NCBI GenBank assembly: GCA_963796275.1
Contig: CAWCKY010000003.1
Span: 1,440,001 to 1,504,000 of the forward strand
DNA: 64,000 bases
Direction: 5' to 3'
Source of the DNA: an uncultured Acidobacteriota bacterium
GTDB taxonomy: Bacteria; Acidobacteriota; Blastocatellia; RBC074
A model generated the notes under the pieces. It saw only the letters and a list, made by a program, of their open reading frames with translations, did not search any database and was not told the origin of the DNA. How positions within the stretch are numbered: position 1 is the first letter of the stretch; each line of letters opens with the position of its first letter. The position numbers and the translations under genes were made by a program. Shown here piece by piece: positions 40,941 to 55,715 of this stretch.

Positions 40941-42242
40941 GTGCTGCTTATTATGTTTCGAGTTCCGGTAGAGCCGACGAGAACGACAATTGATGATGTC
41001 GCACCGCGGCTGGACGATGGACAGCTTTCTCAACGAACCGCTAACGCCGGCGAAATCTCCTCACCTCCTCCAAATAAAAACTCGAATTGGAGCGGATTGA
41101 TGGGGCGTCCGTTGCCGAGATGGGCGTGGCCAGTTGTGGCAGCGACTGGGGCGCTCATCGTTCTCCTCCTCCCGCTCCTTTTTTATCGAGCGCCGGGATT
41201 CACTGTCGTGGTGAGAAGTGTGCCGCCAGACAGCCGAATCTACATCGACGACGTGCCGCGTGGTATCCCCGGCGGCGAGAGAGGCGGGGATACCGCGACA
41301 GCATTAATCAGGGCGCATGGATTGAGATCGGGCGTCAGCCATACCGTTCGCGTAAGTTGTGGAGGTGGTGACGCCTCGCTCTATCTCGCGAATGGCACTT
41401 CGGTCAACGACGTATCGGCCCAGGATGGAGAGGTGGTTGACTTGACGGTAAAGAACTGCGGCCCACCGCCGGCCGAGATCGATTACAACGGCAAAATGCG
41501 CTTCATTGCGAGAGGCGCATTTCTGATGGGCGATAATCAGGGACGGCCTAATGAGAAGCCGGCTCGCCTGGTGGAGATAGATTACGACTATTACATCGAC
41601 AAGTACGAGGTTACCAATCAGCAATACCGAGCTTTTTCTAACAGCCGGATAGGCCGGGCCTTCCCCCGTGAGCCTGAGTGGGATGCCGATTATTCGGCGA
41701 AGCTGGATCATCCGGTTGCCGGAATTTCTTGGAATGACGCCAGAGCATTTTGTGAGGAGTGGGCGAAGAAGCGCTTGCCGACAGAAGAGGAATGGGAAAA
41801 GGCCGCTTCTTGGGATCCGAAGGCTTCCGAGGCCTCGCCAGTCTGGAAACGCAAATGGCCGTGGGGGAATGCATTCGATCCTGACCTCGTAAATTTCAGG
41901 TCGGGTCGTCCGATGCCGGTTGGCCAATTGTCCGACGGCGTGAGCGCGTACGGAGTGCTCGATATGGCCGGCAACATCGGCGAATGGGTCTCCGACGTTT
42001 ATCAGGCCTATCCGGGTAATCCGATTTCAGATCCAAACTACAGCGGTTCGTATCGGGTGCTTCGCGGCGGGACTTTCAAGACCACCGATGAAGATGGACT
42101 TCGCACGACTCGACGAAGTTTTGGGCCGCCTGCATTCAGCCCCGCCGAAAGTTCAGGCGCTATTTCTTTCATAGGTTTCAGGTGCGCGGTGAGAAGCGAT
42201 GATGCCGGTCTGCAGAATCACTTGAGGGGTGCGAATAGATAA
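40941..42242 (+). CDS. Membrane-anchored FGE/SUMF1-fold protein (TagR-like) with a PEGA-like segment
   Basis: TM helix; GAFLMG, IDKYEVTN, HPV.GISW.DA, RLPTEEEWEKAA, WPWG, DMAGNIGEW, RVLRGG and GFRCA. The FGE catalytic cysteines are absent. Confidence 0.88.
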   Translation: MLLIMFRVPVEPTRTTIDDVAPRLDDGQLSQRTANAGEISSPPPNKNSNWSGLMGRPLPRWAWPVVAATGALIVLLLPLLFYRAPGFTVVVRSVPPDSRIYIDDVPRGIPGGERGGDTATALIRAHGLRSGVSHTVRVSCGGGDASLYLANGTSVNDVSAQDGEVVDLTVKNCGPPPAEIDYNGKMRFIARGAFLMGDNQGRPNEKPARLVEIDYDYYIDKYEVTNQQYRAFSNSRIGRAFPREPEWDADYSAKLDHPVAGISWNDARAFCEEWAKKRLPTEEEWEKAASWDPKASEASPVWKRKWPWGNAFDPDLVNFRSGRPMPVGQLSDGVSAYGVLDMAGNIGEWVSDVYQAYPGNPISDPNYSGSYRVLRGGTFKTTDEDGLRTTRRSFGPPAFSPAESSGAISFIGFRCAVRSDDAGLQNHLRGANR

Positions 42243-42322
42243 AAAGATTTCCGTCAGTTATCAAATGCAAAACGAACTATCCAGCAGAAACTGGAACCTT
42301 TTGAGTGAAGTGAGGGAAGGTC

Positions 42323-43051
42323 ATGATCCTAAAACACAAGATTTTTTTCGCCACCTTTCTGGGACTAATTTGCTCTCTACTGCTTGTTCGGGGCGCATCA
42401 GCCCAGGAAAACGATTACGGCACGTGGAAAAAGGCGGAGGTTATCACCAGGCCGGCGGCCAAAGGCAGACCCCGACCGTTCCGGATCAAATCGCCTTTGT
42501 TAACTATGCGCTGGCAGTTTTTTGTCGCAGGCGAAACGACTGAAGAGGCAATCGATCCGGCGAGACGAACCTTCGTCGACGATGAATTGGTACGGATCGC
42601 GGTCCAGGTTAATCAAATAGGATACGTCTATGTCATCAATCATACGGTGAAGCATGACAACAGCATCGAAGGCCCGTTTCTCATCTCTAGAGGACACTAT
42701 CAGATCAAAAAGGATCAACAACTGGTGCTACCTCTGCTATGCCCCGACCCGAATCGAATAAATGGCAAATGCTGGTGGCGGACCAAATCGCCGCCGGGAC
42801 GAGAAGTAGTCACCATCATTTTCAGCAGGGATGAGATTGAAGAATGGAAATATCCGGACACCAGCGAAGGGGATTCGCTGGTGAGCGAATCCCTGATTTA
42901 TTCCCTGACGCGCGAATCCCCGGATACAAACCGGAAGATATTGATGGGACCGCTTCAGAGGACCAATCGGGGACAGATCACGGAGGTATGGAATCCCAAT
43001 CCGAAACGTAACGAAGTGCTGGTTGAAAGAATCGAATTCGCTCACGAATAA
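42323..43051 (+). CDS. Exported DUF4384-like protein 1
   Basis: Signal peptide ending ASA-Q; F.DDELVRI...N..GYVYVIN and PPGREVV.IIFS. Confidence 0.65.
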   Translation: MILKHKIFFATFLGLICSLLLVRGASAQENDYGTWKKAEVITRPAAKGRPRPFRIKSPLLTMRWQFFVAGETTEEAIDPARRTFVDDELVRIAVQVNQIGYVYVINHTVKHDNSIEGPFLISRGHYQIKKDQQLVLPLLCPDPNRINGKCWWRTKSPPGREVVTIIFSRDEIEEWKYPDTSEGDSLVSESLIYSLTRESPDTNRKILMGPLQRTNRGQITEVWNPNPKRNEVLVERIEFAHE

Positions 43052-43219
43052 CTGAAGAGTGTGCAACCTGAAAGTTACTTGTTATCAAAGTTCTGATCGG
43101 CTCCCAAGGAGACGGATGACTATTGCTCCGATATATATCGCTCAGGGCGTAGCTGGATCTAGAACTATGGAGCTCAGTCTTTAGTATGCACAACCTTCAA
43201 TAACTGAATGAGGTACTAA

Positions 43220-44026
43220 ATGAGATCGGACAAGCGAAAACAAAGTATTTTTATTGCCCTCGTATCGTCCGTCCTGCTTTGTGGCGTCATTCTCGCCCAG
43301 AATACGCCGCGCGCGCGTACGCTGACGCTCAATGGTCAGGATGTGACGAAGAAGCAGGATGGGCTTGAGATTCAAATCCTAAAGGAGGCCGGCGGAAAAT
43401 GGGTATTCACCGGACAGAATGAGGAGTTTAAGTCGGGCGATAAAGTGCGGGTCCAATTTTGGAGTAACATCAAGGGCTTTGCCTACTTCATCAATATCGC
43501 GCCGAGCGGCAAACAAAGGGTCATCTACAGCAGGGCGATAGAGAAGGGTAAGGATTACACGTTGCCCGGCATGGACGGCGGCAAGGAGATGTGGATCGAG
43601 TTCGATCAGGAGAAGGGCGTGGAGATTTTGAAACTCGTTGTGACCCCGACACCGATTAAAGTCTTCGACGAGGCGTTGAGCCGGTCGCAGGGCGAAATCG
43701 TAGAATCGGTCTTCAGCGTCTCCGATGAGCTGCTTGGTGACGAACGCAAGCCGGGACAGAGTTCCGCGCAGATAGCAGTGCCGAATTCCGGGCCGGGTTT
43801 AAATCAGCGGTTCGAGCAAGTGGTGATGGTTCAACCGCAAGGATCGCAGGCGTGTCTTCGCGCTCGCGGACTCGGCCTTCGCTGCCGCTCCCTCGGCCTC
43901 GATCCTCCCGACCCGAAAAAAGGGAAAGGGGCAATTGTCGTTGCAATGCCGGACTCGAAGAGCGCGACGGGCAAGCTTAATAAGGATGAGGCGATCGTCG
44001 TCGAACTTCGCTTCAAACACATTTGA
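43220..44026 (+). CDS. Exported DUF4384-like protein 2
   Basis: Signal peptide ending ILA-Q; FKSGDKVRV.F.SN.KGFAYFIN..PSG and FD..KGVE.L.LVV. Confidence 0.72.
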   Translation: MRSDKRKQSIFIALVSSVLLCGVILAQNTPRARTLTLNGQDVTKKQDGLEIQILKEAGGKWVFTGQNEEFKSGDKVRVQFWSNIKGFAYFINIAPSGKQRVIYSRAIEKGKDYTLPGMDGGKEMWIEFDQEKGVEILKLVVTPTPIKVFDEALSRSQGEIVESVFSVSDELLGDERKPGQSSAQIAVPNSGPGLNQRFEQVVMVQPQGSQACLRARGLGLRCRSLGLDPPDPKKGKGAIVVAMPDSKSATGKLNKDEAIVVELRFKHI

Positions 44027-44142
44027 AAAGAAATTGATCACGGGCAACGAGGCCCACTGGGGCAATGGGGCATATGGTCCTAACAGGCTTTGTCTATCCC
44101 CGGTCACCGGCGCCAATCGCTTTGAACCTTTCTTAACGTTCT

Positions 44143-45504
44143 ATGGTTCGATTTAGTCTGCCAGGAGGCTTGATGTCAGGTGCGCTGAAATCGAGATCGG
44201 GATCTGCGTGCAGACTCCGAACGCGACGCTATCCGGAGTCATACGCGGAATCACAATGGAATAGGTCGAGGATGACAGGATTCGCCTTGTGGCTCTGCAC
44301 TATCGTGGTGACGATCAATGCCAATATTCCGAATACTGACGGCTCATCAATTCTCACGCAGGCTATCGGATCGCGGGAGTCTGAGAAGAGTGGCATTCTC
44401 GTGCGGGATGCGAGGGTCAGAGTACGCCGCGCGATAGCGGCTGTTGGGCTAATTCTGGTCAGTGAAGGTGATGGTGATCAGCCACGGCCGAGCGGTTCGG
44501 GCGTCGTCATCCGGCAGGATGGCGTGATCGCCACCAACTGGCATGTCATTAAGCAGCGTAACTCCGATCGGCATTACAAGGAGATTTATTTCAGCCTAGC
44601 CGCAGATAGCGGCGCATCGCCGCTCGATTCGTCGAGCTTTCGAATGCGGGTGGTGGATTTCGATCGAGAGCTCGATCTGGCTCTAATGCGCATTGTCACG
44701 GACGACGAGGCTTCGGGGGAGCAGTCCCCGCTGATTTTGCCGTTCATCGAAATGGGTGACTCACAAGCCATCGAATTACTCGATGATCTGGTGATCATCG
44801 GTTTCCCCGCGATGGGAGGCGCGACAGCCACGGTCAGCCACGGGATTGTCGAGGGCAAAGACAATGTCGAGGGATGGATCAAGACGGATACGCGCATGCT
44901 GCACGGAAATAGCGGCGGGGCCGCAGTCAGCGCTGAGGGCAAGCTGATCGGGATTGCCACCAAGGTCGAAGTCGATCTGGCGCAGAATGATGTGCGGTTG
45001 GGTGCCATCGGCTACCTGCGCCCGTCAAACCTGGTTTCAAAAATGTTCAACAGAATGATCCAGGGAGAACGATCGGAGGTGACTTTATTGAACAGTTCTC
45101 TCGAACAGGCTTCGCCCACACCCCAACCTTCGTTACCCGTCAATGTCAGCGGCTCGGTGAGATTTGCGGTGAACGGAAACCCGATAGCGGGAGCGCGTGT
45201 AGGACTGCTCATCACCGGACGAGAAGTCGCTCCGAATGCGCTTATTGGCTGGGGAGGGACAAATGCCGACGGCTTTTCCCAATTCGAAAATTCGGTGCCG
45301 CCCGGGATGTATCCATTGCGCGCGAGAGTGGTCGGCGATGAACGATATGCGCCTTACGAGCAGGAGATCGAGATCTCACCCGGAATGAATAAGCTGGTCG
45401 TTGAGCTGAAACCGGCAAACGTAGCAAACGTGGCAAACGTAGCAAACGTGGCAAACGGGGCAAACGGGGCAAACGAGCAGAGAGCGCGAAAGGCCAGTAA
45501 GTGA
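44143..45504 (+). CDS. Trypsin-like (S1) serine protease with C-terminal beta-sandwich (start may be 44272)
   Basis: GSGVVI, catalytic triad TNWHV / DLAL / GNSGG, and IGFP. Confidence 0.9.
   Translation: MVRFSLPGGLMSGALKSRSGSACRLRTRRYPESYAESQWNRSRMTGFALWLCTIVVTINANIPNTDGSSILTQAIGSRESEKSGILVRDARVRVRRAIAAVGLILVSEGDGDQPRPSGSGVVIRQDGVIATNWHVIKQRNSDRHYKEIYFSLAADSGASPLDSSSFRMRVVDFDRELDLALMRIVTDDEASGEQSPLILPFIEMGDSQAIELLDDLVIIGFPAMGGATATVSHGIVEGKDNVEGWIKTDTRMLHGNSGGAAVSAEGKLIGIATKVEVDLAQNDVRLGAIGYLRPSNLVSKMFNRMIQGERSEVTLLNSSLEQASPTPQPSLPVNVSGSVRFAVNGNPIAGARVGLLITGREVAPNALIGWGGTNADGFSQFENSVPPGMYPLRARVVGDERYAPYEQEIEISPGMNKLVVELKPANVANVANVANVANGANGANEQRARKASK
45415..45477 (+). repeat. Coding 9-mer tandem repeat (GCAAACGNN)x7, encoding ANV/ANG
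   Basis: Read directly; the same unit occurs in tssM at 51221-51256. Confidence 0.92.
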
Positions 45505-46646
45505 AGATTTGGGGAATCAAAAGCAGTGTGCTCGATGGTTTCGCGGCCAGTCGCGGGAGGCGCGCGATGATTCTCGAGCTGGTCTATCTGATCGAGCGGC
45601 TTTCGAAGTTTTGGATTGCTCTTGTGTCGGCTGCCATTTTGATCGTGATCATCATCATTCTGACATTGATAAAGCTCGTGACGGCTGGAAGCGATTGCGG
45701 TAGCGTAAAGATCATCAGCCCTTTATCGGGAGCGACTATCGACGAATCAGTTAAGGTACTGGTTGCAGCCGACCGTCCGGCATGTATATCGAGCATCAGT
45801 TATAAAATCGCCGGGCTTCAATTCGCCGAACCTGAGACGGATATATTTGAAACGAATCTCGATCCGCGCGTGATTGGTGAAAAGTTCCCCGATCTGACGG
45901 ATGGAGATTATGAACTGTCGATTTCTATCGAAACTGAGTCGGGCCAAACGGAGGCGGTGGTCGATAGTGTGCAGGTGAATATCGAATTTCCCAATATGGA
46001 GGGAGAGATCAGCCTGGAGAATATCCGCGAGATGGCAGAGAAACTCGCAACCAGGATCAATCAGCGCGGCGAGATTTTTACCTTCGATGACGAGTTTCTG
46101 ATTCAGATTCGCACCGCTACGCTGAACTATCGGACGGATATGTTCACAGGCGCCGAGAATATCGGCGCACGAATTCGCAGAACCAGTAATAGCGTGGGGA
46201 TACCTTCGCAACTGATGTTCCTGCTCGCAGCCAGTCGCAGCCGTTGCAGTATGGATCAGACGGTAGGCGGTTGTGGTGTCGATCCGGACGGAGCTGGAAC
46301 GTTCAAGGTTCCGCCTTCCATTATGAATCAATTTGGAGAGAGGTCAGCCGTCGATCACGAAATCGTGACTCAGGTAGCAGCCCGGCATTTGAAAGAGCTG
46401 ATCCAGGGGCAACGAGACGATTTTCTCTATGCTATCGCTTGTTTCGGCGAACCGAGCGCGCGAATCGGAGATATCTTCCAGCGCAACGATCAACAGGCTC
46501 GGCGTAATTTCCACGATCTCGTCGAGAGAGGCGAGATCAGACCGGAAGAATCGAAGAGAGTCGTATGTTTCCTGGCTGCCGGTATAGTTGCGGAGAATCC
46601 CGATAAATTTGGGATCAAGACAAGGTCGTTTGTTGACGTCTATTGA
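45501..46646 (+). CDS. Membrane-anchored Ig-like domain plus degenerate lytic-transglycosylase-like domain protein
   Basis: TM helix; ISPLSGATI..SVKV Ig-like start; C-terminal half aligns by eye with the SLT protein downstream but has ASRS in place of MIES. Confidence 0.72.
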   Translation: MKIWGIKSSVLDGFAASRGRRAMILELVYLIERLSKFWIALVSAAILIVIIIILTLIKLVTAGSDCGSVKIISPLSGATIDESVKVLVAADRPACISSISYKIAGLQFAEPETDIFETNLDPRVIGEKFPDLTDGDYELSISIETESGQTEAVVDSVQVNIEFPNMEGEISLENIREMAEKLATRINQRGEIFTFDDEFLIQIRTATLNYRTDMFTGAENIGARIRRTSNSVGIPSQLMFLLAASRSRCSMDQTVGGCGVDPDGAGTFKVPPSIMNQFGERSAVDHEIVTQVAARHLKELIQGQRDDFLYAIACFGEPSARIGDIFQRNDQQARRNFHDLVERGEIRPEESKRVVCFLAAGIVAENPDKFGIKTRSFVDVY

Positions 46647-46798
46647 CTCGTATGCGGCCCAGCCACCAGGGGCAGCGCGGGGAGCATAGGCGACCTGATG
46701 CTCGGTAAATTAAGCGATTTTCAAGGCATAGGTCGCATACCTCCCCGTACTGGAAAGCTTATTGGGGCGCACTATCTATTGGGACGCACTGAAACGAT

Positions 46799-46896
46799 GA
46801 AAGCGCCCGAGTACGCATCGCTTCCGGCGTGCGGGATTCGGCAGGGGACTAATGAAGAATCCTGGTGCTGGAAGCGATGCGTACTCGGGCGCTTTC
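46799..46896. repeat. 98-bp palindromic REP/MITE-like element
   Basis: Perfect 27-bp inverted repeat GAAAGCGCCCGAGTACGCATCGCTTCC (46799-46825 / 46870-46896) with an inner GGATTC/GAATCC stem. Confidence 0.9.
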
Positions 46897-46920
46897 CTGA
46901 GGAGATCAGTTACATTGAAT

Positions 46921-48480
46921 ATGTACACTTGGAACAACATCAAAACCAGAGTCGGGGGCAGCAGAGTGTGGCTCGCTATCATGACCGCCTTGCTGCTCGG
47001 AATTATCATTCTGAGCTGCATCGCCATGCTTGTGGCGAATCAATTCAGCAGCCGTGCCGCAGACCGCGAGTATGGCCAGTCACCACAATCTGAGCTGCCG
47101 CAGTCGACCTCCAATTCCATAGTTGCCATCAATGTGGCATCTGGAAAAACTTCTCGTCTGCTCTACACCGAGATGACCAGGGAGCAACAAGGCGATTTTC
47201 TAGAACGAGAAGCGGGTCGCGTCACCTCCTTAATAGGGAACCGCGAATACGTATTCGAGAATGAGGTGATCGATTTCATCAAAGAGTATGTGGATGGATA
47301 TGCGAAGAGGATAGCGACGAAGAGCACCGGGCTCTGGAATGAGGATTTGAACTATGTTTTTGAGCGAGCCCGGGAAAATGCGCCGAAGATTATAGCCTCG
47401 TTCAGAAGGGAAGGCGTGCCCGTTGTGCTCGGCCTTTATCTCCCGATGATTGAATCTGAGTATAACGAATGTCTCCAGAGCCCGGCCGGTGCGCTCGGGC
47501 TATTTCAGTTTATGCCGGCCACGGCGAGCGGTTACGGGGTTTCACCATCAGATCGTTGCCAGGTCGAGAAGATTGCGCCGGCTGCGGCAAGTTATATGAA
47601 GGACCGAATCCGAGAATTCGGCAATGATGGAATGAGCGTCGCGCTGGGCATCGCCGCCTATAACCGCAGCCCCCAATCGGTGCGGCGCGACCTTCAAGAT
47701 GTGATAGACAGCAGGTCCAATGAACGCAGTTTCTGGACGCTCCTGGCGAAGAAGGAGCAGCTGGATAAATATTTCCGCAACGAGAATATAAAGTACGTCC
47801 CGAAATTTTTCGCCGCCGCAATCGTGGGCGAAAACCCGGAAACATTCGGTTTACGAATCAGGAAGCTCTCGACTTACGACTATTCGCTGGCATCAGCCGA
47901 TAGCCCCTGTCGGAGTTTGGCGGATGGCGAAATCGAGGAGGCGGCGCGGCAGCTAATGGGGCGGATTAGCAACGATCTTCATATCTACGAATTCCCATCT
48001 GACAAATCACACATCGGCAGAGTGAAAGAAGTAATTGAGGGAAATTGTAATTCGACAGTATTGGGCACTCAGCTGCAGGCCCTCAGGCGCAGCCGGGCCC
48101 GGTTGATCGATTGGTCGGAAAATCAGATTACACCCGATCTGTTAGCTTATGCGGCGCTGGCCAAAACAATAGGGCGCGCTGCTGATAGCGTGGGGCAGGC
48201 CAGGAGAATGGCACCACAATTGATCGAAGTCAGTAAACTACTGAAGGACAGCAATGCCGACACCGCGCTTCTTTCGCTCGCCGCCTATGAAATGGGCCGG
48301 CCCTCGCGAGGGGTGCACCCGATCCACCGAAGGATGGAAGGCCGAATAAATCACGACACCGAACGCAATGTATGGGACCTTTATCGCAAAGGCGGGTTGA
48401 CAGAAGCTGAGTACCGTTTCGTCATTCGATTCCTGGCATTCGGGATCATCGCTCACGAACCGAGAAGGTTCGGTTATTAG
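46921..48480 (+). CDS. Membrane-anchored lytic transglycosylase (SLT/MltD-like) with a second, degenerate SLT-like domain
   Basis: TM helix; motif I MIESEY, motif II SPAGALGLFQFMPATA, motif III IAAYN and KYVPKFFAA. The ORF-track start at 46852 lies inside the palindromic element. Confidence 0.88.
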   Translation: MYTWNNIKTRVGGSRVWLAIMTALLLGIIILSCIAMLVANQFSSRAADREYGQSPQSELPQSTSNSIVAINVASGKTSRLLYTEMTREQQGDFLEREAGRVTSLIGNREYVFENEVIDFIKEYVDGYAKRIATKSTGLWNEDLNYVFERARENAPKIIASFRREGVPVVLGLYLPMIESEYNECLQSPAGALGLFQFMPATASGYGVSPSDRCQVEKIAPAAASYMKDRIREFGNDGMSVALGIAAYNRSPQSVRRDLQDVIDSRSNERSFWTLLAKKEQLDKYFRNENIKYVPKFFAAAIVGENPETFGLRIRKLSTYDYSLASADSPCRSLADGEIEEAARQLMGRISNDLHIYEFPSDKSHIGRVKEVIEGNCNSTVLGTQLQALRRSRARLIDWSENQITPDLLAYAALAKTIGRAADSVGQARRMAPQLIEVSKLLKDSNADTALLSLAAYEMGRPSRGVHPIHRRMEGRINHDTERNVWDLYRKGGLTEAEYRFVIRFLAFGIIAHEPRRFGY

Positions 48481-48505: not shown

Positions 48506-49891
48506 ATGAGTCGCTATCGACGCCTGGTATGGAATGAGGGGATGCTGCTTTCACCCCATCATTTCCAACAAGCGGACAATTACACGGAAGACCTCATCAA
48601 CACGCGCGTCGGCTGGCTGTTCGCGCACGAATGGGGAATACTCGACCTTCAGATCAACCGTGACGCAGTCGCTAATGGCTCGGTTCAATTGATAAGTTGC
48701 CGCGGCGTCATGCCAGATGGTCTGATCGTCAATATCCCGCAGACTTGCACGGCTCCTGAATCTCGCCAGGTGGGCGATCATTTCAGCCCGACTGCTGGCA
48801 ACCTTGATGTCTATCTTTCCGTCCCGGCGAGACAGGTGGGGGCGGCAAATTTTCAGGCCAGCAGGAATTCGACCAATGGAAACCATTCCAACACGCCAGC
48901 TCGCTTCCTGCAGGACGCGGGGCTGGTAGTTGACGAAACGTCGGGCGAGAACGAATTCCAGCTCGCATTCGCGCGTCCCAACTTCAAACTATTGTTCGAT
49001 GGCGAACCGCGCGAGGGTTACAATGTCATCAAGATCGCCGAATTACAGCGCACGGCCACCGGCCGTTTGAAGATCGCTGAAGAATACGTTCCCCCGGCGC
49101 TTCACATCGGTGCATCGCCGTGGCTCGAAAATCTGTTGCGCCAGCTGATTGAGTTTCTTGTCGCTAAAAGCAAGACGCTCGGTGAGCGGCGACATCAAAG
49201 CGGATCGGGCCAGGCAACCTTCACGACCGATGACGGGATGGTCCTGTGGACGCTGCCGACGCTCAATGCTGCAATCCCTCCGCTGGCGCATCTATTTCAT
49301 CAGCGCATCGTTCACCCCGAGAGACTATACACCGAGATGGTAAGACTGGCCGGCGCGATGATGACGCTGGTCTTCGACCGCCATGCCAAAGACCTGCCGC
49401 GTTACGATCATCTCGATCTTTACCAGACCTTTCGCCAGCTCGATTTCGATATTCGCTTCCTGCTCGAAAGGGTCGATCCCCAGCGTTATGTTCCGATTCC
49501 ACTCGTACAGGAACGCCCAGCTCTGTACGTGGCTCGGGTCAATGATAATCGATTGCTGCGCGATGCCGAATTCTTCCTCGCCGTCGGCGCGCAGGTGCCC
49601 GAGAACAGGTTGATCGAGCGGGTGCCGTTCGCCGTCAAGATTGCTCACCGCGATGGTATTGACGTCGTGATCAACAACGCCCTGAGCGGCGTCAGCATGA
49701 CGCACGTCAGGCCGCCCGGACAGATTCCGACCCGCGCCGGGTTGCATTACTTCCGGTTGGACCGCAACGACCTCGACACCTCGCTCAAACGTTTTTGGGA
49801 TTTTATTGTAGCGACCAAGACCCTCTCCGTCTGGGTCGCTGATGAGTTCCCGGAGGCGAAGCTGGAACTCTATGCGATCAAACCTCAATAG
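48506..49891 (+). CDS. tssK: T6SS baseplate subunit TssK
   Basis: VWNEGMLLSPHHFQQ, GVMPDG, YVPP, HPERLY and YDH.DL. Confidence 0.95.
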   Translation: MSRYRRLVWNEGMLLSPHHFQQADNYTEDLINTRVGWLFAHEWGILDLQINRDAVANGSVQLISCRGVMPDGLIVNIPQTCTAPESRQVGDHFSPTAGNLDVYLSVPARQVGAANFQASRNSTNGNHSNTPARFLQDAGLVVDETSGENEFQLAFARPNFKLLFDGEPREGYNVIKIAELQRTATGRLKIAEEYVPPALHIGASPWLENLLRQLIEFLVAKSKTLGERRHQSGSGQATFTTDDGMVLWTLPTLNAAIPPLAHLFHQRIVHPERLYTEMVRLAGAMMTLVFDRHAKDLPRYDHLDLYQTFRQLDFDIRFLLERVDPQRYVPIPLVQERPALYVARVNDNRLLRDAEFFLAVGAQVPENRLIERVPFAVKIAHRDGIDVVINNALSGVSMTHVRPPGQIPTRAGLHYFRLDRNDLDTSLKRFWDFIVATKTLSVWVADEFPEAKLELYAIKPQ

Positions 49892-49898
49892 GAGCAGT

Positions 49899-50600
49899 AT
49901 GCAGGATACATTTTTTTCAAATAGCGCGTATACCATCTCGGACAACTGCCTGATCGATACATCGGCGCCTCTACTCCGAATGATGATGAAGATCAAAGCG
50001 GGGTTGGTTACGCCGTCCAATGAGATGCGTCATATGATCCACGACCTGTTCAAAAAATTCGAAGAGCGCGGGGCGAACAACGGTTACAGAGAAAGCCAAT
50101 TGCAAGATACCAAATTCGCACTAGCCGCGTTCGTTGACGAGACGGTGCTCGCCGGCGGGTTCCCGCTTCGCGAAGAGTGGGAGCGATATCCCCTCCAGCT
50201 CGAATTCTTCAAGGAAGCCCTGGCTGGAAACAAGTTCTTCGAACGTCTCGACTGGTTGATCAAACAGGGGGAAACCGATGTGGTAGAGATTTATTACCTC
50301 TGCCTGCTGCTCGGATTCAAAGGCAAATACCACGTATTCCTCGAGGATCAGTTGCCGGCCGTGATCAATGCAGCTGCCGAAAATTTGCGGGGAGCGGGGC
50401 GATTGCGGAGATGCGTGCTTTCACCGCACGGCCTCCTGAACGATCAACCGGATCCGCCATCACCGGAACCGGAAGTGTCGCGTTGGGCAAAATGGTCCGC
50501 CATGGCAGCGGCCGGAGTGATAGCATTTGCTTATCTCATTTTGAATTGGTCGCTGGTCTCGACTCTTGAAGCGGCGATGAGGGAGAGCCTGTTGAAATAG
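49899..50600 (+). CDS. tssL: T6SS membrane subunit TssL/DotU (no OmpA domain)
   Basis: FALAAFVDE, W...PLQL, AG.KFF.RL, EIYYLCLLLGFKGKY and a C-terminal TM helix. Confidence 0.94.
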   Translation: MQDTFFSNSAYTISDNCLIDTSAPLLRMMMKIKAGLVTPSNEMRHMIHDLFKKFEERGANNGYRESQLQDTKFALAAFVDETVLAGGFPLREEWERYPLQLEFFKEALAGNKFFERLDWLIKQGETDVVEIYYLCLLLGFKGKYHVFLEDQLPAVINAAAENLRGAGRLRRCVLSPHGLLNDQPDPPSPEPEVSRWAKWSAMAAAGVIAFAYLILNWSLVSTLEAAMRESLLK

Positions 50601-50680
50601 AGGCAAACGCTTAAGGCCGATTACTGCCACGCTGTTTATGTTTATCGATGAATCGCGTTGAAAGAAAAGGTTGAGGCTAA

Positions 50681-53600
50681 ATGTTTTCGCTCAGTAAAAA
50701 TATCAAGTCAATATTCATTAACTCCGCGCTGGTCTCGCTGACCCTCATTGCCTTCCTGCTTGTGCTGATCTTCAGCGAGGACATAATCGTGACCATCATT
50801 CTGATTGCGCTCATCCTGTTGTTCTGGCCGGTCCGCTATCTGGTCAGGCATTACTTTAAGGAGCGAGCCGCACGCATGCCATCGCCTGACAGCCAGAAGA
50901 ATAGGGAAGAACCGATTCGCCCGTTGCGTAACTATAAAAATCTCGAAATCTGCGCTGCCGTAACAATCGATTTTCTTCGCCGGAACAGATCTGGCGCGCA
51001 TGGCGGCGAAGATGCGGTCTATGGCCTGCCATGGTTTCTGATCGCTGGTCCTCCCGCGAGCGGAAAGACTTCGCTAATGCTCTCGTCGGGCCTTTCGTTC
51101 AGCCCCCTCAAGAGTCAGCGCCACGCCGATCTGGATCTGCTGCGCCCGACAGACGAATGCGATTGGAGGATTACCGACGAAGCTGTCTTGATAGATTCCG
51201 CGGGTCGCTATCAATCCGAAGGGGCAAACGGGGCAAACGGGGCAAACGGGGCAAACGACGAAAACGAAGCAATCAGGGATAACCGGACGGCTGCAGCAAA
51301 CGGCGCAAACCGCGATGAATGGCTCGGCTTGATCGATATTCTCAAACGATATCGCAGGCAGCGCCCGCTCGATGGATTGGTGTTGACCGTTAGCGCCGCG
51401 AGCTTGATGGCTATGCATTCCATCGCCGAGGTCGAGCAGCAGGCCAGAATCCTGCGCTCTCGCATAAACGATTTGATCTCCGGCGTCGGGGCCAAATTTC
51501 CCGTATATCTGGTCTTCACTGACATGGACGCAGTTTCAGGATTCACCGATTTCTTCAGTTCGCTCGATGTCGAAGAACGTTCGGGGGGGTGGGGGATGAT
51601 GATCCCATTGGCTCAGAACGGACGGGCGTACTCTCTGTTCGATACGGAGTTCAGTCAGCTGATCGGTTCTCTGATGACTCGGCGCCTTCAGCGTCTAAGT
51701 GCCACCGAGGCTTCGGGCGAACACCTGAATATCTTCGACTTCCCGCTCCATTTAAACGCTGTTCGTCAGAAGTTCGGTGTCTTTACGACTGCTCTTTTCA
51801 GTCCGAACCCCTTCAGCGAACTGCCGCTGCTCCGCGGCATATACTTTACCAGTAGTGATGGCGTAACAGATCGCCCAACGGCTCGCAGCGAACGCGGTTC
51901 AACCGAAGAGATGCGGGTGAGGGGCAAAGGATTCTTCACGGAAGGCTTTTTCAAAAATGTTCTGCATCGCGACCGTCACATCGCCGCCACTTTGCAGGCT
52001 ATCCAGGTGCAGCCGAACTGGCTGCGCAAACTTAAATTGGCTGTCGCATCTTTCTGCGCGTTGTCGCTTTTGCTCCTGATGGGGATGATCGTTTCCTATT
52101 TCAATAATCTGAGATTGATCGGCGACGCGGGCAGGGCTGGGGCTGATCTCCTTCGACATTTCCGATCCGGGGTTGGGGGCCCGGCCGCGAAATTATCCGA
52201 AACCGAAACCGAAGACCTCGGCAAATTGCAGGACGTGTTGCTCAAGCTGGACGGTTTTGACCGGAGCTGGGTTGGCCCGGTCTCGCATCGCTTCGGCCTC
52301 TATCAGGGAGGGCGGATCAGACTTCGCCTGCGTGAAATCTATTTCGATTTCCTGGCTCAGCGCTTGCTCGATCACACGCTCGATGCGATGGCTAATGATA
52401 TCTATAGACAAACCCCTGCCCCGATCGGCACGCGCGCCCCAGATGGTTCAGATGTTCCGGGCGTCCCGGGTGGTTCGGTTGACCCATCCGTCCCGGCTGG
52501 CAAAGCTGCTTCCACAATCGTCTCCAGGCAGGAACAGATCGATGCTGCGGAGCAGGGGTATTACGATCGGCTCAAAGCCTATCTCATGGTTGAGCAGCAG
52601 GAGCGAGTTGAGCCGGTGTTTCTGCAACAGCAGCTGGCGCCCTACTGGAAGGAAGGCACATCGGCTGCTGATATGAGACATTTGTACTACTACGTCGAGC
52701 AGGCCAGCATCAATGGCGATGACGATCAGAGCATCCCGCGCCCGCAGTCTGACAGTCCGACCGTGGCTCAGGGGCGGGATAAACTGCGGAATTACGCGGC
52801 CGCCAAGCAGGTTTACAATGAAATCGTAAACAGCATAGGCAGACAGGGAGAGCCATACCGGTTGCGCGATGCGGTAGGCAGCCAGCAGGGAAGCGTGTGG
52901 TTTGACGACATCGGCTCACTGTCTATTCCATACACCTTTACAAAAGAGGCTTATTACAAGCACATCAAAGGCGAGGCGTGGATTTCGGCTTTCGAGGAGA
53001 TACGAGGTAAGAGCGAGAACGATTGGGTGCTTCAGCGTCCCTTCGACTATCAGCGCGTTCAGCCGAATGACCTGCGCCAGAGATACGAGCGGGATTACGT
53101 CTCAGCCTGGCAGAAATTTCTCGAAGGAGTTCGGGTCAAAGAGTTCAAGAAGAGAAATGACGCGGTAGAGGCGCTCGACTCTATTTCGCAACAGAATTCG
53201 CCTTTCACCACCATCTTCGATCAGGTCAGATCTCAAACGACGCTCTCAGAGCCCCCGATCACAGGCGGGGTTATCGCCTGGATCAAATCGTTTCTGACCA
53301 CGAAGGAAAAGGCCAATACGGGCGTCGAAAAATCTTTCACGGCGGTCAGGAGTTTCAAGATCGAAGATTATCTCGAGAAGTTGAAGGAACTGCGCCGCCG
53401 GTTGAATGAAATTCCCGGAGATGAATGGCGGCAGGTGGCTGCGGTGGCCGGGGACGAACGATATAAGAAGGCACGGGACGACGCGCGTGAGCTTTTGAGG
53501 TCCCTCAAAGCGAACCCCGGCAGCAATTCAATGGCCACATTGCTTGCCCGCCCGCTCGACAACATCGAGATCGCTTTGGGTCTCGGCGTCGAGAAAGATC

Positions 53601-54424: not shown

Positions 54425-55588
54425 ATGACAGCAGTTTCACCAATAACGGACCGCGAAACCTTACTCAAACCGATCTCGCAAGAATCATCCGCCGGCCAGG
54501 ATCTGCGGCATATATTGTTCGATCAGAAGAAAGGGATTTATTGGCACGACCGGATCAGAGAGGCCCATCGCGAAAACATTTTTGAAGACGTTCCGAAACT
54601 TCCCGACTGGCCGGTAGTCATCGACCTCTCGATACAAGCTCTCACCTCGCTTACTAAAGATCTACAGATCGCCGCCTGGCTATCAGACGCTCTGGTCAAA
54701 CATAACGGGCACGACCGCCTGGCCGGCCTGCGCGACAGCCTGAACTTGATCCGCGGACTGATCGAGGACTACTGGGGTGAATTTTTTCCCGCGAGCGATC
54801 CGGCGGGCGACGATGGCCCGTTTAAAGCGCGCGCCAACATCATCGCGGCCTTCGACAGCAGAATGGGACTCGCGATCAGAGCCATTCCGCTGACTGAAAG
54901 TATGTCTGGCCTCAAATACTCCTTCATGGATTGGGAGGCTGCAAGGTCTTTCGACATCCCCGAAAAAGACCAATTCGACACGTTCGGTTTCAGCAATATT
55001 GAAAAGTTCAACTTGCTAAAGGAGCAAGCTGAGCAGGAGGGGAAGATCACCGGCGAGGATTGGCGAAAGGCCGTCAACGGCACGCCATATCACTTTATCA
55101 AGGAGCGTCTAGAGCTGCTTCAAAAATGTACTGAAGAATTGAATGCGCTTGCTGATGCGATCGACCTCCGCTTTGAGCTGGAAGCGCCCAGCTTGAGGGA
55201 GCTTCGCAGATCGCTCGAGGATATGACATCGCTCATGAAGAAGCTGGAACGGGAGAAACGTCCGCCTGAAGTAGCCGATGGAATTGAGCAATCGTTGACG
55301 ACGGTAGAGTCGGATTTGCAGAACGGAGAAGCGGGCGGTTTCGGATTGCCCGGCAATATGGGAAGCGTCCGGACCCGGCATGATGCGCTGCGCCGCCTCG
55401 CCGATATCGCTGAATATTTTCGCCGCACGGAGCCTCACAGCCCAGTCTCTTATCTGGTGCGGCGCGCTATCAAATGGGGAAATATGCCGCTCGATGTGTG
55501 GCTGGAAGATGTAGTCAATGAGATGAGCGTCCTCGGACAGCTTCGAGAAACGCTGGGAATTAAAGCTAATAACGATAGTGGGAGTTGA
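54425..55588 (+). CDS. tssA: T6SS TssA (ImpA N-terminal domain)
   Basis: LL.PIS...AG.DLR, DW, TKDLQIAAW and C-terminal YFRRTEPHSPVSYL. Confidence 0.94.
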   Translation: MTAVSPITDRETLLKPISQESSAGQDLRHILFDQKKGIYWHDRIREAHRENIFEDVPKLPDWPVVIDLSIQALTSLTKDLQIAAWLSDALVKHNGHDRLAGLRDSLNLIRGLIEDYWGEFFPASDPAGDDGPFKARANIIAAFDSRMGLAIRAIPLTESMSGLKYSFMDWEAARSFDIPEKDQFDTFGFSNIEKFNLLKEQAEQEGKITGEDWRKAVNGTPYHFIKERLELLQKCTEELNALADAIDLRFELEAPSLRELRRSLEDMTSLMKKLEREKRPPEVADGIEQSLTTVESDLQNGEAGGFGLPGNMGSVRTRHDALRRLADIAEYFRRTEPHSPVSYLVRRAIKWGNMPLDVWLEDVVNEMSVLGQLRETLGIKANNDSGS

Positions 55589-55623
55589 TGAAGATCAATC
55601 CCGAATACATAACGATGAAAAAT

Positions 55624-55696: not shown

Positions 55697-55715
55697 CTCT
55701 CGTGGAGATAAATAT

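What the first reader, a model, noticed from the sequence alone, without database searches (positions are those of the whole stretch)
40941..48480. Six-gene exported module (FGE-fold, 2x DUF4384-like, protease, pseudo-SLT, SLT) directly upstream of a T6SS, in the usual tssJ position
Seen: six co-oriented genes run into tssK with a 25-nt gap. Every product has a signal peptide or a single N-terminal TM helix, so all should be extracytoplasmic. Known: an FGE-fold protein (TagR) acts in T6SS signalling in P. aeruginosa H1-T6SS, and peptidoglycan-cutting enzymes (MltE in EAEC, TagX in Acinetobacter) assist membrane-complex insertion. I know of no described T6SS with this combination of FGE-fold, paired DUF4384-like, trypsin and live/dead SLT proteins. 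Inference: a lineage-specific periplasmic assembly or sensing apparatus, and the best candidate for an undescribed system in this window.
Basis: partly seen in the sequence, partly recalled or inferred. Interest (0 to 1): 0.82.

Follow-up and report, generated by a model that had tools for sequence, protein, structure and literature searches.

The report
Blastocatellia T6SS cell-wall accessory module
Six exported proteins encoded just ahead of a bacterial type VI secretion "nano-weapon" are a lineage-specific add-on, most likely for cutting and gripping the cell wall where the weapon is built, and this genome carries a stripped-down version that has lost its internal signalling parts.

Summary
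Six co-oriented ORFs (40941-48480) encode a TM-anchored FGE-like protein, two DUF4384 proteins, a trypsin/HtrA-like protease, a catalytically substituted SLT-like protein and a live SLT. They end 25 nt before tssK.

In relatives whose record titles say Blastocatellia, the module is a receptor Ser/Thr kinase with the FGE-like ectodomain plus three paralogous FHA-TM-SLT-like proteins, sitting where other Acidobacteriota carry tssJ. The window's lineage has deleted the kinase and every FHA domain and fused the second and third SLT paralogues. The periplasmic parts stay intact at 63-90% identity in related metagenome proteins.

The pSLT family tracks canonical tssK: 98 genomes with both, 3 and 6 with one only, 194 with neither, of 301 class genomes. 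It was found in none of 363 genomes of other classes. TssJ was found in none of the class genomes searched.

Best reading (about 0.55): a peptidoglycan-opening and anchoring accessory of a TssJ-less T6SS, ancestrally gated by Thr phosphorylation and here uncoupled from it. Function is inferred, not shown. It is a new variant of known T6SS accessory kinds, and I found it in no paper searched.

The parts
40941..42242 (+). P1: short cytoplasmic tail, one TM helix (about 61-85), PEGA-like beta domain, non-catalytic FGE-sulfatase-fold ectodomain. It is the kinase-less form of a receptor Ser/Thr kinase found in relatives.
   Evidence: Pfam FGE-sulfatase 6.3e-46. TM segment. Orthologues of 704-728 aa carry Pkinase at the N-terminus, and one has a PEGA hit. 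No kinase remnant was found by tblastn or by a --max HMM search over 38501-49000. There is no Cys at the positions of the two catalytic Cys of human FGE. The closest database relatives, at 63-84% identity, are also kinase-less.
42323..43051 (+). P2 (DUF4384a): secreted Ig-like beta-sandwich protein. It always accompanies the FGE gene.
   Evidence: Pfam DUF4384 at 24.8 bits, cut-off 27. Atlas neighbours are DUF4384 clusters of Acidobacteriota. AF2 model pLDDT 84.6; the best PDB matches are generic Ig-like folds. Orthologue N-termini look like Sec signal peptides with no conserved lipobox Cys. FGE is present in 34 and DUFa in 34 of 54 loci.
43220..44026 (+). P3 (DUF4384b): second secreted Ig-like beta-sandwich protein. 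It travels with the protease gene.
   Evidence: Pfam DUF4384 at 29.3 bits. AF2 pLDDT 72; best match Z 8.0 to an Ig-like AGS-C domain, with no specific fold family. DUFb is present in 17 and the protease in 18 of 54 loci.
44143..45504 (+). P4: exported trypsin/HtrA-type serine protease with a carboxypeptidase-regulatory-like beta domain and no PDZ. The probable start is near 44272. The tail is encoded by a 9-bp tandem repeat.
   Evidence: Trypsin_2 6e-24. NCBIfam matches are to the protease domains of DegP/DegS/HtrA only. H134, D178 and S257 are conserved in 25 of 25 sequences. Orthologues start with signal peptides.
45414..45475 (+). 9-bp tandem repeat (GGCAAACGT x 6.9) at the remodelled P4/P5 junction, where relatives encode the FHA domain of pSLT.
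   Evidence: TRF. Contigs of about 90%-identical relatives from two other studies bridge this junction with an array 27 nt shorter and no FHA-coding insert.
45501..46646 (+). P5 (pSLT): N-terminal TM anchor, Big_7 Ig domain, SLT-like domain with Arg in place of the catalytic Glu. It is the FHA-less form. The probable start is 45567.
   Evidence: BLASTP to P6 3e-09. Alignment A1 shows the motif S-R-S against E-S. Orthologues carry an FHA N-terminus. No FHA remnant was found. Seventeen related clusters at 67-90% identity are 344-390 aa long and carry no FHA.
46852..48480 (+). P6: TM anchor, live SLT lytic transglycosylase domain (Pfam 185-283; homology block about 100-345) and, fused behind it, the SLT-like domain of the third paralogue (SLT3, about 350-541, Lys at the Glu position). 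It is an FHA-less form.
   Evidence: Pfam SLT 7.6e-15. The IESE motif has Glu in 74 of 74 orthologues. Residues 103-342 and 353-541 match two separate genes in relatives. The same fusion, with FHA, occurs in 4 loci. Eight clusters at 75-84% identity carry SLT only.
48506..54277 (+). tssK, tssL (DotU only, no peptidoglycan-binding domain found) and tssM: the baseplate and membrane-complex genes that the module runs into.
   Evidence: Pfam T6SS_VasE 2.5e-121, DotU 2.5e-41, IcmF-related domains.
54425..64000 (+). The rest of the T6SS cluster inside the window: tssA, tssB, tssC, hcp, tssE, tssF, tssG and clpV (which runs off the window). The caspase-TPR gene, vgrG and a DUF4123 adaptor follow outside the window.
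   Evidence: Pfam.

Best explanation

Ancestral form of the module:
(i) A bitopic receptor Ser/Thr kinase whose ectodomain is a non-catalytic FGE fold, in effect TagR and PpkA in one chain, with a secreted DUF4384 partner.
(ii) Optionally, a second DUF4384 protein with an HtrA-like protease, and a periplasmic caspase-TPR protein.
(iii) Three paralogous bitopic proteins, each built as cytoplasmic FHA domain, TM helix and periplasmic SLT-like domain. One keeps the catalytic Glu. In the other two it is mostly replaced.

Proposed mechanism:
- The live SLT opens the peptidoglycan locally so that TssL-TssM can be built.
- The two substituted paralogues hold the complex to the glycan strands, or control the enzyme.
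- In ancestors the FHA domains tied this step to Thr phosphorylation by the receptor kinase.
- In the window's lineage the kinase domain and all FHA domains were deleted and SLT was fused to SLT3. The wall-remodelling part persists and acts without phospho-control.

Shown: domain architectures, synteny, co-occurrence, residue patterns, the domain losses and their conservation.
Inferred: peptidoglycan cleavage and binding, contact with TssLM, the kinase-FHA link, and co-transcription.
For: Architecture:
- Relatives have Pkinase + FGE in one protein of 704-728 aa.
- FHA was found on 17 of 18 SLT-like proteins scanned from relatives' loci next to the T6SS. The exception is a 245-aa SLT ORF that sits beside a separate 224-aa FHA ORF.

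Three ancient paralogue clades: pure clades of 81, 75 and 60 sequences, with supports of 0.575, 0.977 and 1.0.

Residue at the catalytic position:
- SLT: Glu in 74 of 74.
- pSLT: of the 74 of 80 sequences printed, Arg 53, Gln 12, Glu 8, Lys 1.
- SLT3: of the 38 of 59 printed, Lys 19, Glu 12, others 7.

The FHA pThr-reading motif GR..S[RK]xH..SxNG is present in 134 of 177 FHA-bearing members. The best NCBIfam family for one such FHA domain is T6SS TagH (7.5e-13, below cut-off).

Synteny: tssK lies downstream in 32 of 58 loci with at least 2.5 kb of sequence, and within 400 bp in 17 of them.

Co-occurrence:
- 98 / 3 / 6 / 194 in 301 class genomes.
- In the phylum sample the 19 genomes with pSLT are exactly the 19 class genomes with TssK. 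None of the 25 T6SS-bearing genomes of other classes has it.

TssJ:
- Found in 0 of 41 relatives (13 with TssK) and in 0 of 19 class T6SS genomes.
- Found in 9 of 25 other-class T6SS genomes, each time directly upstream of tssK.
- TssL here is DotU only.

Natural fusions link the parts: SLT-SLT3 in 4 loci plus the window, and FGE+SLT+pSLT in one ORF of at least 1403 aa.

The derived form is maintained, not decaying:
- Intact FHA-less and kinase-less relatives exist at 63-90% identity.
- Independent contigs from two other studies bridge the P4/P5 junction.
- The protease triad is conserved in 25 of 25 sequences.

Precedents, from passages read in PMC13584744: TagX, an inner-membrane-anchored peptidoglycan hydrolase; MltE with TagL for an 'ancestral' TssL; TsmK, found only where tssJ is lacking. 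From passages read in PMC13713981: TagR-TagQ acting on PpkA.
Against: - In 26 of 58 loci the triad is not followed by tssK.
- Of 10 such genomes tested, 2 have no TssK match and 1 has only a weak one of another type. These three carry the FHA-less 'FHA | pSLT | SLT | SLT3 | kinase-FGE | TPR' variant, so a triad can exist without a canonical T6SS.
- Six class genomes have TssK without a strong pSLT match.
- 24 of 34 FGE genes lack the kinase, so the kinase-FHA link is not obligatory.
- No PP2C phosphatase lies near the cluster.
- No protein-protein, enzymatic or expression evidence was obtained.
- Genomes of one class are not independent samples, so the co-occurrence overstates the number of events.
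- PF12790 may miss divergent TssJ. It also missed 16 of 25 other-class T6SS genomes.
Confidence: 0.55

Rival explanations
1. Structural replacement of TssJ. The three SLT-like bitopic proteins are stoichiometric parts of the membrane complex, forming a periplasmic ring or struts around TssM. They are not helpers that act during assembly, and the live SLT activity is secondary.
For: - They occupy exactly the tssJ position upstream of tssK.
- TssJ was not found in any class genome searched.
- The paralogue triplication is ancient and every clade is kept.
- Two of the three are mostly catalytically substituted.
- FHA-TM-periplasmic-domain proteins match the Pfam family of the T3SS inner-ring protein's cytoplasmic domain, Yop-YscD_cpl.
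Against: - They are inner-membrane anchored, whereas TssJ is an outer-membrane lipoprotein, and no outer-membrane link is evident.
- In 26 of 58 loci they are not beside tssK.
- Some triads occur in genomes without a TssK match.
- No fold or sequence likeness to TssJ was found.
Confidence: 0.2
2. A general envelope or cell-wall signalling module: a receptor kinase, FHA-tagged peptidoglycan enzymes and periplasmic proteases. It has no dedicated role in the T6SS and is merely often adjacent to it.
For: - 26 of 58 loci lack an adjacent tssK.
- The FHA-less triad with kinase-FGE occurs in genomes with no TssK match, or only a weak one.
- Kinase-FGE, FHA and caspase/CHAT-TPR genes are abundant elsewhere in these genomes.
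Against: - 98 of 101 genomes with a strong pSLT match also have canonical TssK, and 194 of 200 without it lack TssK.
- In 7 of 10 non-adjacent cases a canonical tssK lies elsewhere in the genome.
- The gap to tssK is 25 nt here and at most 400 nt in 17 loci.
Confidence: 0.15
3. Effector and immunity set. The SLT is a peptidoglycan-degrading T6SS effector, and the substituted paralogues or the DUF4384 proteins are its immunity proteins.
For: Peptidoglycan glycoside hydrolases are a known effector class (my own knowledge). The genes lie within a T6SS cluster.
Against: - N-terminal TM anchors and, in relatives, cytoplasmic FHA domains place the SLT domains in the producer's own periplasm.
- The genes lie upstream of tssK, about 20 kb from vgrG and the DUF4123 adaptor.
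- Order and copy number are fixed across the class, unlike variable effector cargo.
Confidence: 0.05
4. Decaying remnant. After loss of the kinase and FHA domains, the window's six genes are on their way to becoming pseudogenes.
For: - Four separate cytoplasmic domains are missing relative to the nearest FHA- and kinase-bearing relatives.
- The P4/P5 junction is remodelled and carries a tandem repeat.
- Homology to P1's longer relatives runs on for 10 codons upstream of P1's GTG, across a TGA stop.
Against: - All six frames are open.
- The catalytic Glu of P6 and the triad of P4 are kept.
- The same shortened forms recur as intact proteins at 63-90% identity in many independent assemblies.
Confidence: 0.05

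Closest known systems
Threonine phosphorylation pathway of the P. aeruginosa H1-T6SS (TagQ/TagR - PpkA - Fha1 - PppA)
   Same: An FGE-fold periplasmic sensor part, a membrane Ser/Thr kinase and FHA-domain readers are encoded with a T6SS. These are present in relatives of the window. PMC13713981 (passages read) identifies TagR residues 127-359 as FGE-sulfatase-like and proposes that a TagQ/TagR complex binds the PpkA ectodomain.
   Different: - Here the FGE fold is the kinase's own ectodomain, not a separate protein.
- The FHA domains are fused through a TM helix to SLT-like ectodomains, in three paralogues, rather than forming a soluble Fha1.
- The small partner is a secreted DUF4384 protein without a lipobox, not the lipoprotein TagQ.
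- No PP2C lies nearby. TagS/T were not looked for.
- The window itself has neither kinase nor FHA.
Peptidoglycan-remodelling helpers of T6SS assembly: MltE (EAEC) and TagX (Acinetobacter)
   Same: A wall-cutting enzyme acts in the producer's periplasm at the membrane complex. TagX is inner-membrane anchored with a periplasmic catalytic domain and is encoded in the T6SS locus (review PMC13584744, passages read). P6 has the same topology and a live SLT domain.
   Different: - MltE is a housekeeping outer-membrane lipoprotein encoded elsewhere.
- TagX is an L,D-endopeptidase of the VanY type, not a lytic transglycosylase.
- According to the passages read, neither has FHA domains or catalytically substituted paralogues.
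Peptidoglycan-anchoring and TssJ-compensating accessory proteins: TagL, TagN, TagP, TagV, TsmK
   Same: The review describes accessory genes that compensate for an 'ancestral' TssL without a peptidoglycan-binding domain (TagL with MltE) or for a missing TssJ (TsmK, never found with tssJ). The window has a DotU-only TssL and no TssJ, and it has two wall-binding-type domains without the catalytic Glu.
   Different: The folds are unrelated: OmpA/SH3b-type domains or a pseudo-ketoacyl synthase, against SLT-like domains here. Binding of the substituted SLT domains to peptidoglycan is inferred, not tested.
PorK/GldK, the FGE-fold ring lipoprotein of the type IX secretion system
   Same: An FGE-sulfatase fold serves as a non-enzymatic part of a secretion machine. 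P1 matches GldK (NCBIfam 2.7e-19, below cut-off) and PorK chains in the PDB (5.7e-07).
   Different: PorK is an outer-membrane lipoprotein that forms large rings. P1 is an inner-membrane bitopic protein. The match is far below the family cut-off (69.8 against 350 bits).
SctD (YscD/PrgH-type) inner-ring proteins of type III secretion
   Same: The layout is the same: cytoplasmic FHA-like domain, one TM helix, periplasmic domain. Pfam Yop-YscD_cpl matches the relatives' N-termini (E down to 8.9e-15).
   Different: The periplasmic part here is SLT-like, not ring-building motifs. The FHA domains here mostly keep the pThr-binding motif (134 of 177).

Membership tests
SLT (family 1 lytic transglycosylase), P6 | Pfam SLT domain above the gathering score | tested here: met
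   54.9 bits against a cut-off of 21.3, residues 185-283.
SLT (family 1 lytic transglycosylase), P6 | Catalytic Glu in the E-S motif | tested here: met
   P6 has IESE. Glu is present in 74 of 74 orthologues. That this Glu is the catalytic one is recalled knowledge of the family.
SLT (family 1 lytic transglycosylase), P5 and the C-terminal half of P6 | Catalytic Glu in the E-S motif | tested here: not met
   P5 has S-R-S and the second domain of P6 has A-K-T at that column. Homology to SLT is shown by BLASTP 3e-09 to P6 and by weak Pfam SLT hits in orthologues. They are SLT-fold relatives, probably not enzymes.
SLT (family 1 lytic transglycosylase), P6 | Cleaves peptidoglycan with formation of 1,6-anhydro-MurNAc | not testable with these tools
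   Needs an enzyme assay.
Formylglycine-generating enzyme (FGE), P1 | FGE-sulfatase fold | tested here: met
   Pfam 157.5 bits. PDB FGE chains match at 1e-16 to 1e-17.
Formylglycine-generating enzyme (FGE), P1 | The two catalytic cysteines (human C336 and C341, recalled) | tested here: not met
   In the alignments to human FGE chains the stretch ...GGSYM(C/S)HRSY(S/C)YRY... pairs with ...GGTFKTTDEDGLR... of P1, which has no Cys. The family consensus has none there either.
T6SS threonine phosphorylation pathway (PpkA/Fha/TagR type) | Membrane Ser/Thr kinase encoded with the T6SS | tested here: not met
   The window has none. Neither tblastn nor an HMM search with --max found any over 38501-49000. 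The feature is met in relatives, where 10 of 34 FGE genes are kinase fusions.
T6SS threonine phosphorylation pathway (PpkA/Fha/TagR type) | FHA-domain protein encoded with the T6SS | tested here: not met
   The window has none. The 18 FHA matches in the own genome all lie elsewhere, the nearest on the contig about 740 kb away. The feature is met in relatives, as FHA-TM-SLT fusions.
T6SS threonine phosphorylation pathway (PpkA/Fha/TagR type) | TagR-like FGE-fold periplasmic component | tested here: met
   The P1 ectodomain. No direct comparison with the TagR sequence was made.
T6SS threonine phosphorylation pathway (PpkA/Fha/TagR type) | TagQ-like outer-membrane lipoprotein partner; PppA phosphatase; TagS/T | tested here: inconclusive
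   No lipobox Cys in P2, P3 or their orthologues. No PP2C_2 match on the window's contig. TagS/T were not searched for.
TssJ | PF12790 domain; outer-membrane lipoprotein encoded beside tssK | tested here: not met
   No PF12790 match in the own genome, in 41 relatives or in 38 class genomes of the phylum sample. P2 and P3 have no lipobox. The fold searches of the P2 and P3 models list no TssJ chain among the rows shown, which is inconclusive as to fold.
HtrA/DegS-type protease, P4 | Ser-His-Asp triad in a trypsin fold | tested here: met
   Trypsin_2 85.8 bits. H134, D178 and S257 are conserved in 25 of 25 sequences.
HtrA/DegS-type protease, P4 | C-terminal PDZ domain(s) | tested here: not met
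   No PDZ family at E<=0.01. There is a weak CarboxypepD_reg match instead. NCBIfam matches cover the protease part only and lie far below the cut-offs.
DUF4384, P2 and P3 | Pfam PF14326 above the gathering score | tested here: met
   P3 scores 29.3 bits against 27. P2 scores 24.8 bits, just under, but 29 of its 30 nearest Atlas clusters share the DUF4384 family set and its orthologues were recovered by iterative search.

The most novel reading that the evidence does not exclude
Blastocatellia build a T6SS membrane complex of a different design. There is no outer-membrane TssJ. Instead, three inner-membrane proteins with SLT-like ectodomains, one enzyme and two substituted paralogues, are integral parts of the complex that root it in peptidoglycan. 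Ancestrally their cytoplasmic FHA domains coupled assembly to a receptor kinase whose ectodomain is the TagR fold. The window's lineage is a natural experiment showing that the periplasmic half works without any phospho-signalling.
Probability: 0.25. Interest if true: 0.8.

Novelty: new variant of a known kind. Interest (0 to 1): 0.62.

Why it matters
T6SS accessory genes are known almost only from Proteobacteria. This is a class-wide, tightly co-inherited module in abundant soil Acidobacteriota. It merges three functions that are separate elsewhere: damage or contact sensing of the TagR/PpkA type, FHA read-out, and cell-wall remodelling or anchoring. It sits where tssJ normally sits.

- The kinase-FGE fusions are a natural Rosetta-stone argument for the direct TagR-PpkA contact. 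The 2026 study could only model that contact (PMC13713981, passages read).
- The FHA-SLT fusions suggest that wall opening itself can be the phospho-regulated step.
- The window's lineage has shed every cytoplasmic signalling domain but kept the ectodomains. That separates the two halves genetically and gives a ready comparison for experiments.

Tried and rejected
- **Kinase or FHA remnants in the window.** tblastn with 15 relatives' proteins and HMMs of the kinase and FHA parts, run with --max over six frames of 38501-49000, gave nothing better than i-E 0.011 at a place on the wrong strand. I conclude the domains are absent and not frameshifted.
- **The 785-nt region upstream of P1.** Only its first 167 nt resemble two other genome sites. 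There was no Rfam match apart from a chance miRNA row.
- **Promoter and terminator scans of 40000-49000.** The counts did not exceed the shuffles: 5 against 6.5 and 9 against 9.5. This says nothing on operon structure.
- **DUF4384 proteins as stand-ins for TssJ or TagQ.** They have no lipobox. Their models give only generic Ig-like matches, with Foldseek E at best 6e-3 and Z at best 8.0, and no TssJ chain among the rows shown. They are missing from many T6SS-adjacent loci. I rejected this as the general explanation; the fold question stays open.
- **Anti-sigma-like neighbour (37580-38728) as part of the module.** Homologues occur in only 2 of the loci held. Rejected.
- **Context of the FHA-less clade in metagenome contigs.** Two scans found no relative.
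- **Expression.** No RNA holder was listed for 40900-50600, so co-transcription could not be tested.
- **Complex prediction** (P1 ectodomain with mature P2). No interaction result exists.
- **PP2C phosphatase near the cluster.** None on the window's contig.

Full report
**1. What is in the window.**
Six ORFs on the + strand fill 40941-48480 and stop 25 nt before the ATG of tssK at 48506. A GGAG-rich site lies in that gap.

| Gene | Pfam result |
|---|---|
| P1 | FGE-sulfatase, 6.3e-46 |
| P2 | DUF4384, 24.8 bits, just below the 27-bit cut-off |
| P3 | DUF4384, 29.3 bits |
| P4 | Trypsin_2, 6e-24, plus a weak carboxypeptidase-regulatory-like match |
| P5 | only a weak Big_7 Ig match |
| P6 | SLT, 7.6e-15 |

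Behind them lie tssK, tssL, tssM, tssA, tssB, tssC, hcp, tssE, tssF, tssG and clpV, all with strong matches. Just outside the window come a caspase(C14)-TPR gene, vgrG and a DUF4123 adaptor.

- P5 is a paralogue of P6 (BLASTP 3e-09).
- Each product except P4 has one N-terminal hydrophobic segment in a hydropathy scan. P4 has a short one after Met44, and its orthologues start with signal peptides.
- The caspase-TPR protein also has a signal peptide and an H-G / D-A-C-H-S-G dyad.
- No TssJ (PF12790) match exists in the genome, which is 9.46 Mb in 7 contigs and 94.7% complete.

Two refinements apply: P6 contains two SLT-like domains, and a seventh exported partner lies further down the cluster.

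**2. What relatives show.**
A search of 40 related genomes found P5 homologues on the same contig and strand as tssK, 3-5 kb from it, in five genomes besides the window's own. I cut out those places and annotated them. Three things emerged that cannot be seen from the window.

- *P1 is often a kinase fusion.* In three relatives its orthologue is a 704-728-aa protein with an N-terminal Ser/Thr kinase domain (1e-46 to 1e-52), then the TM helix, a PEGA-like domain and the FGE fold.
- *There are three SLT-like genes, not two, and they carry FHA.* Seventeen of the 18 scanned from T6SS-linked loci carry an N-terminal FHA domain (E 1e-13 to 1e-20). The one exception is split from a neighbouring FHA ORF. 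The layout is FHA - TM - (Ig) - SLT-like.
- *P6 is a fusion.* Residues 103-342 match the second gene of relatives and residues 353-541 match the C-terminal half of the third.

The window has no trace of a kinase or FHA domain anywhere in 38501-49000. None of the genome's 18 FHA matches lies near the cluster.

**3. Spread and linkage.**
A pattern scan of one genome per prokaryotic species returned 145 relatives of the pSLT family. The 80 kept all carry titles of Blastocatellia, Pyrinomonadaceae, Chloracidobacterium or unclassified Acidobacteriota. Three are titled 'uncultured Clostridia' and one 'uncultured bacterium'. I annotated them with profiles built by iteration from the window's proteins.

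The recurring order is [kinase-]FGE | DUF4384a | [DUF4384b | protease] | FHA-pSLT | FHA-SLT | FHA-SLT3 | tssK tssL tssM.

- Of 58 loci with at least 2.5 kb beyond the last SLT-like gene, 32 have tssK there, 17 of them within 400 bp. The other 26 do not.
- Of 54 loci with at least 6 kb upstream, 34 have the FGE gene (10 of them as a kinase fusion), 34 have DUF4384a, 17 have DUF4384b and 18 have the protease.

The triad is therefore the constant part. FGE+DUF4384a and DUF4384b+protease are two optional pairs.

Ten genomes where the triad is not beside tssK were searched. Seven have a canonical tssK elsewhere, two have none and one has only a weak match of another type. The last three carry a distinct variant, 'FHA | pSLT | SLT | SLT3 | kinase-FGE | TPR', without FHA on the SLT-like proteins.

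*Class sample of 301 genomes*. I set the line at pSLT best E of about 1e-30, because the E-values are bimodal.

| | Canonical TssK | No canonical TssK |
|---|---|---|
| Strong pSLT match | 98 | 3 |
| No strong pSLT match | 6 | 194 |

- Of the 3 with pSLT only, one genome is 73% complete and two are of the FHA-less variant.
- Of the 6 with TssK only, three have intermediate matches of 1e-23 to 1e-26.
- Two genomes flagged as unpublished (G004, G151) are in this sample. Both fall in the 'neither' cell, and dropping them changes only 194 to 192. G004 is also one of the 41 relatives, with no match in any of them.
- Genomes of one class are related, so these counts overstate the number of independent events.

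*Phylum sample of 401 genomes*.

- The pSLT profile matched 19, all within the 38 class members, and none of the 363 others.
- TssK matched the same 19 plus 25 genomes of other classes.
- TssJ matched 9, all among those 25, each directly upstream of tssK on the same strand. It matched none of the class genomes, and none of the 41 relatives, 13 of which have TssK.

**4. Residues and folds.**
A tree of 216 SLT-like domains gives three pure clades (81, 75 and 60 members; supports 0.575, 0.977 and 1.0). The triplication therefore predates the class's diversification.

Residue at the column of the catalytic Glu:

| Clade | Residue pattern |
|---|---|
| SLT | Glu in 74 of 74 |
| pSLT | of 74 of 80 printed: Arg 53, Gln 12, Glu 8, Lys 1 |
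| SLT3 | of 38 of 59 printed: Lys 19, Glu 12, others 7 |

The window has Glu in the first domain of P6, Arg in P5 and Lys in the second domain of P6.

- The FHA domains of relatives mostly keep the GR..S[RK]xH..SxNG pattern (134 of 177). One of them scores best against the T6SS TagH family in NCBIfam, though below its cut-off.
- P1 lacks Cys at both positions that carry the catalytic cysteines in human FGE. It is a binding fold, not an FGly-generating enzyme. Its best solved relatives are ToxD, EgtB, pFGE/FGE and, more weakly, the T9SS ring protein PorK/GldK.
- P4 keeps His134, Asp178 and Ser257, as do all 25 sequences aligned. It resembles the protease domain of DegP/DegS but has no PDZ.
- P2 and P3 model as Ig-like beta sandwiches (pLDDT 84.6 and 72). 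Their PDB matches are only generic: RhoGDI-type at E at best 6e-3, and Z at best 8.0 to an AGS-C domain. They and their orthologues have Sec-type signal peptides without a lipobox Cys.

**5. The window's form is derived but maintained.**
The nearest neighbours of its SLT-like domains in the tree are FHA-bearing orthologues, not the FHA-less variant named above. The loss here is therefore separate.

| Protein | Closest database relatives | Where FHA or kinase forms appear |
|---|---|---|
| P6 | 8 clusters at 75-84% identity, 499-544 aa, SLT only | from 69% identity downward |
| P5 | 17 clusters at 67-90% identity, 344-390 aa, no FHA | nearest FHA-bearing at 53% |
| P1 | the four closest at 63-84% identity, FGE only | 11 kinase fusions of 29 rows, all at 51% or less |

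Contigs of about 90%-identical relatives from two further studies bridge the P4/P5 junction. They differ there only by 27 nt within a 9-bp tandem repeat. A whole sub-lineage has thus removed the kinase domain, both FHA domains, and the FHA-TM part of the third paralogue by fusion, while keeping the ectodomains under evident constraint.

An SLT-SLT3 fusion that still carries FHA occurs in four other loci. One MAG encodes FGE, SLT and pSLT in a single ORF of at least 1403 aa. These fusions argue that the ectodomains work together.

**6. How it most likely works.**
Established knowledge gives the frame.

- T6SS membrane complexes must pass the peptidoglycan. EAEC recruits MltE, and Acinetobacter encodes the inner-membrane-anchored endopeptidase TagX.
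- Systems with a TssL that lacks a peptidoglycan-binding domain add TagL.
- Systems without TssJ add TsmK (review PMC13584744, passages read).
- P. aeruginosa gates assembly by TagQ/TagR, then PpkA, then Fha1 (PMC13713981, passages read).

The Blastocatellia module contains, in fused form, a counterpart for each of these: an FGE-fold sensor on the kinase, FHA readers, one live wall-cutting enzyme anchored in the inner membrane, and two SLT-fold domains that have mostly lost the catalytic Glu. It stands in a T6SS that has a DotU-only TssL and no detectable TssJ.

My best reading (confidence about 0.55) has four steps:
- The live SLT opens the wall at the site of TssLM assembly.
- The substituted paralogues hold on to glycan strands or regulate the enzyme.
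- In ancestors this was coupled to Thr phosphorylation.
- In the window's lineage that coupling has been abandoned.

The roles of the DUF4384 proteins, the HtrA-like protease and the periplasmic caspase-TPR protein are open. From co-occurrence I guess that DUF4384a binds the FGE ectodomain and that DUF4384b is a partner or substrate of the protease.

None of the interactions, activities or transcripts was tested. The one complex prediction I tried to run never entered the queue, and no RNA data set holds the locus.

**7. Rivals.**
- The triad is a structural stand-in for TssJ (0.2). This overlaps with the best reading and is the boldest version.
- It is a general envelope-signalling module that is only often adjacent (0.15). 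This is fed by the 26 of 58 non-adjacent loci and the three genomes without canonical TssK, and countered by the 98/3/6/194 table.
- It is an effector-immunity set (0.05). Topology, position and fixed gene order speak against it.
- It is a decaying remnant (0.05). The conserved intact relatives speak against it.

**8. Novelty.**
Three searches bear on this:
- 'DUF4384' with 'type VI secretion' returned no paper.
- 'type VI secretion' with 'Blastocatellia' returned two preprints whose listings do not concern this.
- The combination of forkhead-associated, transglycosylase, type VI secretion and membrane complex returned only reviews. I saw only their listings, except for the 2026 review.

In the 2026 review of accessory factors I read passages only. 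The words 'sulfatase' and 'caspase' do not occur in it, and no FHA-SLT fusion is mentioned in the passages read. Subscription-only papers and supplements were not searched.

I class the finding as a new variant of known kinds of T6SS accessory function. It is of real interest to T6SS specialists, but the mechanism rests on inference.

Noticed in passing
window 40156-40322: About 170 nt just upstream of the minus-strand gene 39085-40155 is 71-73% identical to two other places in the genome (G000:C4:1589115-1589292 and C2:772756-772892). There is no Rfam match. It may be a shared leader or a small repeat.
   Followed up: partly
window 45414-45475: A 9-bp tandem repeat (6.9 copies) encodes the (Ala-Asn-Val)n tail of P4. 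Close relatives in two other metagenomes have an array 27 nt shorter, so its length varies.
   Followed up: partly
G000:C1:1178451-1181040 (outside the window): Kinase and FGE matches on one strand, with two in-frame TAG codons inside the FGE match. This may be a broken kinase-FGE paralogue elsewhere in the genome.
   Followed up: no
L022:3240-7448: One open frame of at least 1403 aa, running off the contig, holds an FGE-sulfatase domain followed by a live SLT domain and a pSLT-type domain. It is preceded by a separate 624-aa kinase ORF.
   Followed up: partly
L049, L051, L058, L059, L061 (about 9500-17000 in each): A variant cluster, 'FHA protein | pSLT | SLT | SLT3 (all without FHA) | kinase-FGE | TPR protein', has no tssK within 8 kb. 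Of the three host genomes searched, two have no TssK match and one has only a weak one.
   Followed up: partly
window 37580-38728 (- strand): An anti-sigma-like protein (weak zf-HC2 and NCBIfam antisigma matches) lies two genes upstream on the other strand. Homologues occur near tssK in only 2 of the loci held.
   Followed up: yes
G013, G025, G164, G265, G290, G041, G047 (places): A second, weaker kind of TssK match (E 1e-40 to 1e-44, covering only about 320-400 of the model's 429 positions) suggests another T6SS subtype in some genomes of the class.
   Followed up: no
L002:1833-3863 and L002:680-2053: In one relative, a CHAT-domain protein and a CarboxypepD_reg/Big_1 protein lie directly upstream of the kinase-FGE gene. 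Caspase or CHAT proteases seem to recur around this module.
   Followed up: no
window 21110-21598: An Hfq-like ORF whose Hfq match covers only residues 104-151, leaving an N-terminal extension of about 100 aa.
   Followed up: no
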